DNA from: Escherichia coli
GTDB taxonomy: Bacteria; Pseudomonadota; Gammaproteobacteria; Enterobacterales; Enterobacteriaceae
NCBI RefSeq assembly: GCF_030013595.1
Contig: NZ_CP122768.1
Reading direction: 5' to 3' (one strand)
Length of the DNA stretch: 64,000 nt
Made by a program: the position numbers. Each line of letters begins with the position of its first letter. Positions within the stretch are counted from its first letter, which is position 1. This document shows positions 24,001 through 27,000 of this stretch, piece after piece.

Positions 24001-27000
24001 CATTCGCGAAACCAGTGCTGCTGATGTGCCGCTGGCGATTGACCATTTTCGCTATTTTGCCTCGTGTATTCGGGCGCAGGAAGGCGGTATTAGTGAAGTG
24101 GATAGCGAAACTGTGGCTTATCACTTCCACGAACCGTTAGGCGTGGTGGGGCAGATTATTCCGTGGAACTTCCCGCTGCTGATGGCGAGCTGGAAAATGG
24201 CTCCCGCGCTGGCGGCGGGCAACTGTGTGGTGCTGAAACCCGCACGTCTTACCCCGCTTTCTGTACTGCTGCTAATGGAAATCGTCGGTGATTTACTGCC
24301 GCCGGGCGTGGTGAACGTGGTTAACGGCGCTGGTGGGGAAATTGGCGAATATCTGGCGACCTCGAAACGCATCGCCAAAGTGGCGTTTACCGGCTCAACG
24401 GAAGTGGGTCAACAAATTATGCAATACGCCACGCAAAACATTATTCCGGTGACGCTGGAGCTGGGCGGCAAATCGCCAAATATCTTCTTTGCTGACGTGA
24501 TGGATGAAGAAGATGCCTTTTTTGATAAAGCGCTGGAAGGCTTTGCACTGTTTGCCTTTAACCAGGGCGAAGTTTGCACCTGTCCAAGCCGTGCTTTAGT
24601 GCAGGAGTCTATCTACGAACGCTTCATGGAACGCGCCATCCGCCGTGTTGAAAGTATTCGTAGCGGTAACCCGCTCGACAGCGTGACGCAAATGGGTGCG
24701 CAGGTATCTCACGGGCAACTGGAAACCATCCTCAATTACATTGATATCGGCAAAAAAGAGGGCGCAGACGTGCTCACCGGCGGGCGGCGCAAGCTGCTGG
24801 AAGGCGAACTGAAAGACGGCTACTACCTCGAACCGACTATTTTGTTTGGTCAGAACAATATGCGGGTGTTCCAGGAGGAGATATTTGGCCCGGTGCTGGC
24901 GGTGACCACCTTCAAAACGATGGAAGAAGCGCTGGAGCTGGCGAACGATACGCAATATGGCCTGGGCGCTGGCGTCTGGAGCCGCAACGGTAATCTGGCC
25001 TATAAGATGGGGCGCGGCATTCAGGCCGGGCGCGTGTGGACCAACTGTTATCACGCTTACCCGGCACATGCGGCGTTTGGTGGCTACAAACAATCAGGCA
25101 TTGGCCGCGAAACCCACAAAATGATGCTTGAGCATTACCAGCAAACCAAGTGCCTGCTGGTGAGCTACTCGGATAAACCGTTGGGGCTGTTCTGATGTGA
25201 AAGGCAGGCAACGTTAATAGTTGTCTGCCTTTGTTTTAGTTGTATAAAGCGGCAGTCGCTTTTAACTCATCGCTGAAAGAATAAATATCATCGAGAGATT
25301 CAATAGGATGGCGGGTTTCGTTTTTCTCTAAGTCAAATAAACCAATATATTTTTGATTTCGATTGAAATGTAATCTACAGAGTGGCTTTCGATTATTGTC
25401 ATCTACAAGTATACCAAAATAGCTTTTTGTATCTCTGTGGACTATTCGTGGTGCATCAAGCACTACGCGAACTATAGCTTTAACAATATGAAATCCTTCA
25501 AGTTCCTCCATAGTAGTAGCAATATCGGTTTCTTCTTTATTAATACATTCTACTTCTTCATTGTGTGAATTCGAATCAATTACAGATAATGACCCACCAC
25601 CTATTGCCGATTTCAATCTTTCGTTTATTTGAGAGTTAATATATTGATTGGCAGCTTTCTTTGTTAATTTTGCAAACGTATCTTTTACCTTTTGTGTTAA
25701 CATACCTTCATAAATTCTTGCTGCAAAGAATTTTACAAAATCCTCTTCAGGATTATTCATTTGTGCATGGAGAACTTTTTAAATTAAACTAACATATTTT
25801 AATTCACCTGCAGCATTAATTATTGATTCCAAATCAAATGCTGATTTAGTAAGCTTCTTTATCTCGGGAACAACTGTTTCATCTAAGTCAAGTAGATCTA
25901 TCTCAAGAAATGGTTTTTCATCCATTTTATTAGGTGCTTCTAAATCAGTAAAAAATTTATAAACTTGTTCATTGGTTAGAATAGATATTCTTGCATTTGT
26001 TACATGAAAGTATCGAAAAAGCTGTGAAGCATGATTTATATTTAGAGGATCGCCAATTTTTTTGCATTCAATGAGAATCTGAACCTCGCTATTTTTTAAG
26101 ATTGCATAGTCAATCTTTTCACCTTTCTTCGTTCCAATATCGCATACAAACTCTGGGATAACTTCGGTAGGATCAAAGACATCATAACCTAACACATTGT
26201 TAATAAACGGCATTACGAAAGCATTTTTGGTAGCTTCCTCCGTTTCAATGACTCCGGCTTGTTGTTTTATTTTTGCGGATAATGAATTCAGCTTATCTAT
26301 AAACTCCATAGACATTATAACTCCTTATATATATTTAATAAAAATGCGTTTTATAAAAATATAGAAAATATTTATATATTAACGCTTTATCATTGGTCAT
26401 AGTTAATGTATAACACACAAAAAATAATGTTTGCACATTGTAAATACAATGGTGAAACAAACTTGATATTTATCAAGAAAATAAAACAATGTCTTTTATT
26501 GGTTGTTTTAAACGTTCAATGAATACGAGTTGGAGCTATAGCAAGACTAGCTTCGATATCGCATGGATAATCTAATACAGATTTTTTAACACCTAATACT
26601 ATGAGTTATATGTAAATTGCGAGCATCCTCGCATCTTTTCAACAAGTTACTGCACACCGTTATTCTCCTTCCGAGCGGCATTCCTGAGTCAACTTTATCC
26701 CCCTGACGGCCCATATAAATCGCGCTATCGTGATTGTTATCGCTAATTGTGTGTGTATCGTGTGTATAATCATGGAAGGGCAGGGATGTGAAAAGTGCAG
26801 ACGTGATCGCCATCCTGAAGCAGCATGGCTGGGAACATATTCGAACCCGTGGCAGTCATCATCAGTTCCGCCACCCTGTTCATCCGGGTCTGGTGACGGT
26901 TCCGCACCCTAAAAAAGATATTAAGCCCGGTACGCTGGCGCAAATTGGGCGTCAGGCTGGTTTAACATTTTAAAATTTCAGGAGGCAATATGTTTTATCC

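What the first reader, a model, noticed from the sequence alone, without database searches (positions are those of the whole stretch)
25236..26787. AT-rich accessory module with a PD-(D/E)xK nuclease-like gene beside hicAB: candidate uncharacterised defence element
Seen in sequence: right after the aldB terminator the composition drops sharply to AT-rich (about one-third GC by eye) for ~1.5 kb. It holds two minus-strand ORFs (178 aa and 174 aa) and ~470 bp of AT-rich non-coding DNA. The 178-aa ORF carries KIDYAILKNSEVQILIECKK, which fits the D...(D/E)xK core of HsdR-N-terminal/Mrr-type restriction endonuclease folds; the 174-aa part has no domain I can name. Established knowledge (from memory): K-12 has yiaW-yiaV-yiaU-yiaT between aldB and sgbE, and none is present here. 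Inference: a horizontally acquired nuclease-domain gene next to a toxin-antitoxin pair looks like a small defence island; I cannot assign it to any named system.
Basis: partly seen in the sequence, partly recalled or inferred. Interest (0 to 1): 0.75.

Follow-up and report, generated by a model that had tools for sequence, protein, structure and literature searches.

The report
Broken stand-alone restriction-type nuclease gene
The two AT-rich ORFs beside hicAB are one horizontally acquired nuclease gene, split here by a premature stop codon; it belongs to a very widespread, untested family that temperate phages carry next to their repressor, so it is a plausible but here inactive anti-phage gene.

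Summary
The 178-aa and 174-aa minus-strand ORFs share a reading frame and are separated by a single TAA. Intact E. coli alleles encode one 359-aa protein (WP_000061477.1, named "type I restriction endonuclease"). The window allele carries two private changes: K179* and G116E, the latter at a glycine invariant across the family. It is therefore a pseudogene.

The acquired segment is window 25199-26614 (31% GC, against 51% for the window). It is present in 189 of 5426 complete E. coli genomes. hicAB occurs in about 505 genomes and often without this gene, so the two are separate neighbours.

The protein has three parts: an HsdR-N/RecB-type PD-(D/E)xK nuclease domain with D69, E83-x-K85 and Q98xxxY102 conserved, a helical spacer, and a small alpha/beta C-terminal domain with no Pfam match. 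It has no helicase or methyltransferase domain and no conserved partner gene.

The family is large (about 1200 clusters at 50% identity) and usually lower in GC than its flanks. In temperate phages of several phyla it lies just downstream of the CI-type repressor.

Most likely it was a single-protein, restriction-like defence nuclease, now dead in this strain. No experimental characterisation was found, and PADLOC does not list it.

The parts
25199..26614 (.). Strain-variable inserted segment (1416 bp, 31% GC). It holds the gene, its terminator and its own upstream region. In hicAB-bearing strains without the gene, about 100 bp containing a REP-like palindrome lies here instead.
   Evidence: blastn of the window against L003 and L004; GC; no terminal direct or inverted repeats at the ends.
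25236..26315 (-). Disrupted 359-codon coding sequence (pseudogene) of a stand-alone HsdR-N-type PD-(D/E)xK nuclease. Intact alleles encode WP_000061477.1.
   Evidence: Single-frame translation with one internal stop; alignment with the intact alleles in L001 and L002; full-length match to PHROG 4225, E 3e-130.
25779..26315 (-). 5' fragment ORF (178 aa): nuclease domain (about residues 1-140) plus the start of the helical domain.
26010..26111 (-). Catalytic core: D69 ... E83-x-K85 ... Q98-x-x-x-Y102 (a RecB/HsdR-type nuclease motif). It is still intact in the window sequence.
   Evidence: Sequence. One search lists D69 and E83 as invariant and K85, Q98 and Y102 as at least 90% conserved in 61 diverse homologues.
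25968..25970 (-). Codon 116, GGA to GAA (G116E, nucleotide 25969), at a glycine invariant across the family (the L-T-N-G motif). Private to this lineage.
   Evidence: None of the 189 complete genomes that carry the gene shares this change.
25779..25781 (-). Premature stop: codon 179, AAA to TAA (K179*, nucleotide 25781). It falls inside the long helix 162-187 of the model. Private to this lineage.
   Evidence: None of the 189 complete genomes shares it. The exact 178-aa product is present in public assemblies from at least 20 samples.
25236..25760 (-). 3' fragment ORF (174 aa, from an internal ATG with no evident Shine-Dalgarno sequence). It covers the rest of the helical domain, a disordered linker and the C-terminal domain.
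25239..25517 (-). C-terminal alpha-beta5-alpha domain (residues about 267-359). It has no Pfam family. The fold weakly resembles the YdhG, YjbR and MotA C-terminal ('double-wing') and frataxin-like sandwiches, so DNA binding is inferred. E271 is invariant; T267, T268, R290, D295, D305 and R314 are nearly invariant.
25200..25232 (.). G+C-rich hairpin (13-bp stem) between the convergent aldB and the nuclease gene; likely a terminator serving both directions.
   Evidence: repeat I10.
26316..26614 (-). AT-rich upstream region of the gene (26-27% GC). It is not conserved between genera apart from the ribosome-binding site. It contains short inverted repeats at 26436-26451 and 26462-26477.
   Evidence: No Rfam family. 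No strong sigma-70 match on the minus strand.
26788..27400 (+). hicA (26788-26973) and hicB (26990-27400): a neighbouring, independently distributed type II toxin-antitoxin pair. It is not part of the element.
   Evidence: Annotation; Pfam HicA_toxin and HicB_lk_antitox; distribution.

Best explanation
Window 25199-26614 is a horizontally acquired single-gene insertion. Its gene once encoded a 359-aa stand-alone nuclease with three parts:
- an N-terminal PD-(D/E)xK domain of the HsdR-N/RecB type;
- a helical spacer like the one that follows the nuclease head in type IIG enzymes;
- a flexible linker and a small C-terminal alpha/beta domain that probably binds DNA.

Shown by the data:
- In this strain the gene is dead. 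A G116E change hits an invariant glycine, and K179* cuts the protein in the middle of the helical domain.
- The adjacent hicAB pair is an unrelated neighbour.

Inferred:
- The intact protein acts alone as a restriction-like (type IV-like) nuclease.
- It is made constitutively, in prophages from the repressor operon.
- It finds foreign DNA through its C-terminal domain and cuts it with the N-terminal domain, sparing host DNA because the target feature (a modification state or structure) is absent there.
For: One gene, now broken:
- The two ORFs share one frame and are separated by a single stop.
- All six intact E. coli alleles examined are 1080 nt.
- Both lesions are private to this lineage but occur in at least 20 public samples.
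- G116 is invariant in 61 diverse homologues.

Intact alleles are under purifying selection:
- Six alleles show 9 synonymous and 3 non-synonymous variable sites, giving dN/dS of about 0.09.

Nuclease:
- Pfam HSDR_N_2 and HSDR_N match.
- D69, E83 and K85 are conserved.

Stand-alone and mobile:
- No neighbour gene recurs beyond local synteny groups in 80 genomes.
- The gene has lower GC than its flanks in 71 of 80 loci.
- It is present in 189 of 5426 complete E. coli genomes.
- It is disrupted by IS2 in strain RS571.

Expressed in lysogens:
- In phages of Streptococcus, Corynebacterium, Fusobacterium, Enterococcus and Acetoanaerobium it lies directly downstream of the repressor (with or without an ImmA-type protease), on the same strand, with an integrase downstream in four of the five records.
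- Of 80 IMG/VR contigs, 32 have a CI/XRE-type repressor directly upstream on the same strand, and 54 have some lysogeny gene within 5 kb.

Link to DNA methylation in some members:
- A minority of members carry an added RAMA domain (8.3e-14) or a SeqA-C-like domain (best 5.8e-5).
- JGI names fragments of the family 'predicted type IV restriction endonuclease'.
Against: - No experiment on any member was found.
- PADLOC gives only a weak domain-level match to type IIG enzymes (2.7e-7) and a chance-level match to PDC-S26.
- In chromosomes the gene lies among housekeeping genes, not in defence islands.
- The family is unusually well conserved for a defence gene: 55-70% identity between Proteobacteria and Actinobacteria.
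- How host DNA would be spared is unknown.
Confidence: 0.6

Rival explanations
1. A selfish, homing-type nuclease gene. It spreads by cutting the empty site in related genomes and being copied in during repair, then decays once fixed. It would benefit itself rather than the host.
For: - It is a lone low-GC gene with no other mobility gene or terminal repeats, inserted between conserved housekeeping genes.
- It lies next to or near aldB in Escherichia, Citrobacter and Enterobacter.
- Decay is frequent: a nonsense allele here, IS2 in RS571, and lone C-terminal fragments in other complete genomes.
Against: - The C-terminal (presumed recognition) domain is highly conserved, yet the insertion sites differ widely between taxa.
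- The position after the prophage repressor recurs in unrelated phages, which points to selection for expression in the lysogen.
- Intact E. coli alleles are under strong purifying selection.
Confidence: 0.1
2. A cellular DNA repair or recombination nuclease (RecB/Cas4-like end processing) with no role in defence.
For: - It has the RecB-family D...ExK...QxxxY motif.
- Sequence conservation across phyla is high.
Against: - Distribution is patchy: 3.5% of complete E. coli genomes.
- GC is lower than the flanks in 71 of 80 loci.
- It rides in the prophage lysogeny module rather than with recombination genes.
- It is readily lost or inactivated.
Confidence: 0.08
3. The nuclease gene and hicAB form one functional defence unit.
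For: - The gene and hicA are divergent neighbours 472 bp apart.
- hicAB homologues lie within 5 kb of family members in Escherichia sp. ESNIH1 and in four Pseudomonas loci.
- hicAB lies directly upstream in a Porphyromonas phage.
Against: - hicAB is found in about 505 genomes and the gene in 189, on separate presence/absence differences.
- Distance and orientation differ in every case.
- 75 of 80 genomic loci have no detectable hicAB nearby.
- In Citrobacter and Enterobacter the gene lies near aldB without hicAB.
Confidence: 0.05
4. The two ORFs are a real two-protein system, or the TAA is read through or translation restarts, so the locus is still functional.
For: - An ATG lies 18 nt after the stop.
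- The catalytic residues of the 178-aa fragment are intact.
- The allele persists in at least 20 samples.
Against: - All 189 complete genomes with the gene differ from the window in the 61 bases around the TAA, and every allele aligned has AAA there.
- The family is uniformly a single chain of about 350-370 aa.
- The break is inside a modelled helix.
- No Shine-Dalgarno sequence precedes the internal ATG.
- G116E independently hits an invariant residue.
Confidence: 0.03

Closest known systems
N-terminal nuclease domain of type I HsdR subunits (for example EcoR124I HsdR, PDB 2w00; HsdR fragment 3h1t)
   Different: There are no SF2 helicase/translocase domains, the protein is 359 aa rather than about 1000 aa, and no hsdM or hsdS lies nearby. 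The RefSeq name 'type I restriction endonuclease' is therefore only a domain label.
Type IIG/IIL restriction-modification enzymes BpuSI (3s1s) and DrdV (7lo5), MmeI-like
   Different: There is no methyltransferase or target-recognition domain. A 90-residue alpha/beta domain follows the connector instead.
Type IV (modification-dependent) restriction enzymes with separate recognition and cleavage domains (Mrr, MspJI, PvuRts1I); comparison from my own knowledge
   Same: It is a solitary nuclease with no cognate methyltransferase, built as two modules (cleavage plus presumed binding), and spread by horizontal transfer. JGI labels family fragments 'predicted type IV restriction endonuclease'. Some members add RAMA or SeqA-C-like domains.
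   Different: The C-terminal domain is not an SRA, EVE, YTH or winged-helix reader. Modification dependence is untested.
Prophage-encoded defence and superinfection-exclusion genes of the lysogeny module (for example Ltp of S. thermophilus phage TP-J34, PMC3952083)
   Same: Same genomic niche: between repressor and integrase, on the repressor strand.
   Different: Ltp is a surface lipoprotein that blocks DNA injection. This is a cytoplasmic nuclease, and no phenotype has been reported.

Membership tests
PD-(D/E)xK nuclease superfamily, HsdR-N type (Pfam PF04313 / PF13588) | Profile match to the HSDR_N families | tested here: met
All 61 diverse homologues match PF13588 and 60 match PF04313.
PD-(D/E)xK nuclease superfamily, HsdR-N type (Pfam PF04313 / PF13588) | Catalytic D ... 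(D/E)xK residues conserved | tested here: met
   D69 and E83 are invariant and K85 is at least 90% conserved. Q98 and Y102 are also conserved. All are present in the window sequence.
PD-(D/E)xK nuclease superfamily, HsdR-N type (Pfam PF04313 / PF13588) | Restriction-endonuclease-like fold | tested here: met
Type I restriction enzyme R subunit (the RefSeq product name) | SF2 helicase/translocase motor domains in the same protein | tested here: not met
   The protein is 359 aa. The only significant Pfam hits are HSDR_N and HSDR_N_2.
Type I restriction enzyme R subunit (the RefSeq product name) | Linked hsdM and hsdS genes | tested here: not met
   Neighbours are aldB and hicAB in E. coli. No neighbour gene recurs beyond local synteny groups in 80 genomes.
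Type IIG restriction-modification enzymes | Fused methyltransferase and target-recognition domains | tested here: not met
   No methyltransferase domain. The PADLOC match covers only profile positions 61-217 of 1011.
Type IV restriction enzymes | Nuclease with no cognate methyltransferase | tested here: met
   Solo gene in E. coli, Citrobacter and Enterobacter, in 80 other genomes, and in phages.
Type IV restriction enzymes | A recognised modified-DNA reader domain | tested here: inconclusive
   The core C-terminal domain has no Pfam match. Its fold only weakly resembles the YdhG, YjbR and MotA C-terminal domains. A minority of members add RAMA or SeqA-C-like domains.
Type IV restriction enzymes | Cleavage that depends on DNA modification | not testable with these tools
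   Needs biochemistry or phage plating.
Named anti-phage systems (PADLOC-DB v2.0.0) | Significant full-length match to a system model | tested here: not met
   Only REase_MTase_IIG (partial, 2.7e-7) and PDC-S26 (0.032). It is not among the systems listed in part 1 of 3 of Table S6 of the DefensePredictor paper. Text searches of the held supplement files found neither the accession WP_000061477 anywhere, nor the product name 'type I restriction endonuclease' in Table S6. Some supplement tables were truncated when stored.
Functional gene (intact member of its own family) | Uninterrupted reading frame of about 350-370 codons with the invariant residues kept | tested here: not met
   K179* and G116E.
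HicAB type II toxin-antitoxin (the neighbour) | HicA_toxin and HicB antitoxin domains in an adjacent pair | tested here: met
   PF07927 and PF15919 on identical products; RefSeq annotation. Its distribution is independent of the nuclease gene.

The most novel reading that the evidence does not exclude
The intact family is an unnamed, single-protein anti-phage (or anti-plasmid) system. It would be an HsdR-type nuclease head guided by a previously undescribed DNA-recognition domain, carried in prophage immunity operons across at least five phyla and as solo insertions in thousands of bacterial genomes. It may read DNA methylation state, as the RAMA and SeqA-C-like additions in some members hint. 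The window would hold a recently killed copy.
Probability: 0.4. Interest if true: 0.6.

Novelty: new member of a known kind. Interest (0 to 1): 0.33.

Why it matters
For this window it matters little: the copy is a pseudogene, and the apparent "nuclease plus toxin-antitoxin island" is two unrelated neighbours.

At family level it is a reasonable experimental lead:
- The nuclease is very common, strongly conserved and stand-alone.
- Temperate phages of Firmicutes, Actinobacteria, Fusobacteria, Bacteroidetes and Proteobacteria carry it beside their repressor.
- PADLOC-DB v2.0.0 does not list it, and I found no functional study of it.
- Testing the intact E. coli allele would be cheap. It could add a single-gene restriction-type system with a new recognition domain.

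It also shows that the RefSeq label "type I restriction endonuclease" is misleading for these proteins.

Tried and rejected
- Two-gene reading: rejected. The ORFs share a frame, there is one stop, and intact alleles are a single CDS.
- Selenocysteine or other recoding (selAB is close by): rejected. The stop is TAA, and it is AAA in every other allele examined.
- Transposon or insertion-sequence carrier: no terminal repeats and no transposase.
- RNA elements in the AT-rich spacer: nothing credible in Rfam.
- Conserved upstream regulator or small partner ORF: upstream regions do not align between genera.
- Conserved partner gene: none in 80 genomes.
- Remnant of the gene in K-12: none in the yiaW-aldB spacer.
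- Sequence search against solved structures, for both the whole protein and the C-terminal profile: nothing significant.
- NCBIfam: no family.
- Fold searches with the C-terminal domain: only weak generic alpha/beta sandwiches in the PDB, and only members of the same family in AFDB50.
- Profile search with the C-terminal domain alone: the listed hits were short fragments of 95-207 aa with no Pfam domain.
- Context look-ups for two 50%-cluster representatives: the contigs were too short to be useful.
- Literature searches (HsdR N-terminal, HSDR_N, PF13588, the accession, aldB+hicA, the DefensePredictor tables, a metagenomic selection study): no characterised member found.
- PADLOC scan of flanking genes in high-GC genomes: not done, because my crude ORF calls there are unreliable.
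Full report
**What is in the sequence**

The window is an E. coli chromosome segment: selA-selB-yiaY-aldB, then the finding, then hicA-hicB, a GH127 glycoside hydrolase, an MFS transporter, an AraC regulator and sgbE/sgbU. GC drops from about 0.55 in aldB to 0.26-0.34 between roughly 25300 and 26650.

Two minus-strand ORFs lie at 25779-26315 (178 aa) and 25236-25760 (174 aa). 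Translating 26315 down to 25233 in one frame gives a continuous 359-codon product with one internal stop. That stop is a TAA at 25779-25781, followed six codons later by the ATG of the second ORF. The two ORFs are therefore halves of one gene.

**Comparison with other E. coli**

- The same 1.8 kb is present at 99-99.8% identity in 189 of 5426 complete genomes, always on the chromosome and always between aldB and hicA.
- In each intact copy examined there is a single 1080-nt CDS. Most of these encode WP_000061477.1, named "type I restriction endonuclease".
- Against these, the window has exactly two differences inside the CDS: A to T at 25781 (AAA to TAA, K179*) and G to A at 25969 (GGA to GAA, G116E).
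- Neither change occurs in any of the 189 complete genomes.
- The exact 178-aa product is on record in public assemblies from at least 20 samples, so the allele belongs to a real lineage and is not a sequencing error.
- Six intact alleles differ at 9 synonymous and 3 non-synonymous sites (dN/dS about 0.09). The window allele adds two non-synonymous changes and no synonymous ones. Intact copies are thus under purifying selection, and this copy was inactivated recently.
- Strain RS571 has the same gene broken by IS2.

**Limits of the element and relation to hicAB**

- hicAB occurs in about 505 genomes.
- In hicAB-bearing strains without the nuclease gene, aldB and hicA are separated by about 270 bp. 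Homology to the window stops at 25196-25198 and resumes at 26615.
- The variable segment is therefore 25199-26614 (1416 bp, 31% GC). It holds a hairpin terminator shared with aldB (25200-25232), the gene, and about 300 bp of AT-rich upstream DNA.
- The stretch 26615-26787 is the ordinary hicA upstream region.
- There are no terminal repeats, no transposase and no Rfam element.
- In Citrobacter freundii an 82%-identical homologue also lies tail-to-tail with aldB, but next to yiaW. In Enterobacter asburiae a 78% homologue lies a few genes from aldB. Neither has hicAB beside it.
- hicAB homologues are within 5 kb in 5 of 80 other genomes and directly upstream in a Porphyromonas phage. Distance and orientation differ each time.

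I conclude that hicAB and the nuclease gene are independent accessory genes that tend to land in the same kind of variable spot.

**The protein**

- Pfam finds HSDR_N_2 (residues 26-123) and HSDR_N (52-129) and nothing significant beyond residue 130.
- In an alignment of 61 representatives at 37-55% identity, K30, E55, D69, E83, L99, G116 and E271 are invariant. K85, Q98, R101 and Y102 are nearly so. This gives the motif D69...E83-x-K85...Q98-x-x-x-Y102. From my own knowledge, that is the RecB-family motif described for type I HsdR nuclease domains.
- The AlphaFold model (pLDDT 92.3) has four regions: a nuclease domain (about 1-140), a helical domain (146-239), a disordered linker (240-266), and an alpha-beta5-alpha domain (269-358).
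- K179* falls inside helix 162-187, so it separates the nuclease from everything downstream. G116E replaces the invariant glycine of the L-T-N-G strand.

**The family**

- It is large and uniform. An exhaustive search found 5213 clusters (at 50% identity) with E at or below 1e-3 and 1205 at or below 1e-30. Most of the listed representatives are full-length matches of 350-370 aa.
- It matches PHROG 4225 ("endonuclease") over its whole length (3e-130).
- UniProt names include "Prophage Lp2 protein 6". JGI names some fragments "predicted type IV restriction endonuclease".
- NCBIfam and PADLOC have no model for it.
- In 80 genomes from Pseudomonas, Aeromonas, Vibrio, Arthrobacter and many other Actinobacteria (53-79% identity), no neighbour gene recurs beyond local synteny groups. 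The flanks look like housekeeping genes, for example a GGDEF protein, ABC and MATE transporters, an aldehyde dehydrogenase and glutamate dehydrogenase; I assigned these by reading the sequences, not by a search.
- The gene has lower GC than its flanks in 71 of 80 loci, with a median difference of 9.6 points.
- Upstream regions are not conserved between genera.

**Phage context**

- Nineteen GenBank phage records, those with a named host spanning nine genera, encode full-length homologues.
- In Streptococcus IPP25, Corynebacterium Juicebox, Fusobacterium FNU_1P, Enterococcus EG-TP1 and Acetoanaerobium ANDSL2_ph1, the gene sits on the repressor strand, downstream of the CI-type repressor (with or without an ImmA-type protease). 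An integrase lies downstream in all but the Acetoanaerobium record.
- At least 544 IMG/VR contigs carry it. Among the best 80, 32 have an XRE/CI-like repressor directly upstream on the same strand (mostly under 100 bp away), 28 have an integrase within 5 kb, and 54 have some lysogeny gene. My detection was of limited sensitivity, and many of these contigs are related to each other.
- This is the position where prophages typically carry genes expressed in the lysogen, including superinfection-exclusion genes (for example Ltp, PMC3952083).

**Variant architectures**

- Some members carry an N-terminal TerD domain (7.7e-26).
- Others carry a C-terminal RAMA domain, "Restriction Enzyme Adenine Methylase Associated" (8.3e-14).
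- Others carry a C-terminal extension weakly similar to the SeqA DNA-binding domain (best 5.8e-5).
- These additions point towards sensing of DNA methylation, but they are absent from the E. coli protein.

**Interpretation**

Shown:
- This is one horizontally acquired gene for a stand-alone HsdR-N-type nuclease.
- It is inactivated here.
- It is independent of hicAB.
- It is not a type I R subunit, because it lacks a motor domain and hsdMS. It is not a type IIG enzyme, because it lacks a methyltransferase.

Inferred:
- The intact protein is a single-chain restriction-like defence nuclease, closest in logic to type IV enzymes with separate recognition and cleavage modules.
- I put about 0.9 on the identity and pseudogene part, and about 0.55 on the defence role.

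Arguments against defence:
- There are no experimental data.
- There is no PADLOC model.
- Chromosomal neighbours are housekeeping genes.
- Conservation across phyla is unusually high.
- The recognition domain is not a known reader of modified bases.

Rivals considered, each with a test given above: a selfish homing-type nuclease, a repair nuclease, a joint unit with hicAB, and a still-functional split gene.

**Literature**

Searches found no characterised member. [quoted passage not shown] I did not check whether it belongs to this family.

**Verdict**

Interest is modest for the locus and moderate for the family as a candidate single-gene defence system.

Noticed in passing
L003 1955-3250 and L005 2019-3314 (other E. 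coli strains); the corresponding window spacer is 23457-23656: Some strains carry a 431-aa Fic-family gene between yiaY and aldB. The window and K-12 do not, so this is a second small presence/absence difference in the same neighbourhood.
   Followed up: no
window 27472-30847 and onwards; L186 4814-5110 (K-12): The aldB-sgbE interval exists in at least three forms: K-12 yiaTUVW; hicAB plus GH127-MFS-AraC; and the latter plus the nuclease gene. K-12 keeps two tiny pseudogenes (ysaC, ysaD) beside sgbE; I did not check what they derive from.
   Followed up: partly
proteins P0123, P0220, P0243 (TerD); P0126 (RAMA); P0122, P0144, P0191 (SeqA-C-like): A minority of family members carry extra domains: N-terminal TerD, C-terminal RAMA, or a C-terminal extension weakly like the SeqA DNA-binding domain. 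These hint at links to stress response and to reading of adenine methylation.
   Followed up: partly
L007 3247-5074 (Porphyromonas phage019b); L020, L025, L031, L034, L045: hicAB homologues recur within 5 kb of family members in three separate lineages, with different spacing and orientation each time. This is more often than I would expect by chance, but it is not an operon.
   Followed up: partly
window 26436-26451 and 26462-26477 (within the inverted repeat 26428-26459): Two short inverted repeats with 7-bp arms and a 2-nt spacer (CATTGTA-TT-TACAATG and CTTGATA-AA-TATCAAG) lie 10 bp apart in the gene's AT-rich upstream region. They could be operator sites or chance in AT-rich DNA. They are not conserved in other genera.
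   Followed up: no
proteins P0305 (Deefgea sp., 148 aa, 3.4-Mb contig), P0375 (Desulfofustis limnaeus, 115 aa, 4.2-Mb contig), P0313: Lone C-terminal fragments of the family are annotated on very long (up to 4.2-Mb) contigs of distant taxa. This suggests that decay of the gene, as seen in this window, is common.
   Followed up: no
window 22116-22304: The selB-yiaY intergenic spacer is also markedly AT-rich (GC about 0.31 in 300-nt windows).
   Followed up: no
PMC8713573 (Campylobacter jejuni CAMSA2038, DDV75_03095): [quoted passage not shown] I did not check whether it belongs to this family.
   Followed up: no
window 23567-25195: The mechanical ORF for aldB starts at a GTG 90 nt upstream of the annotated ATG (window 23657, MTNNPP...). 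The RefSeq start is the one that gives the 512-aa AldB.
   Followed up: no
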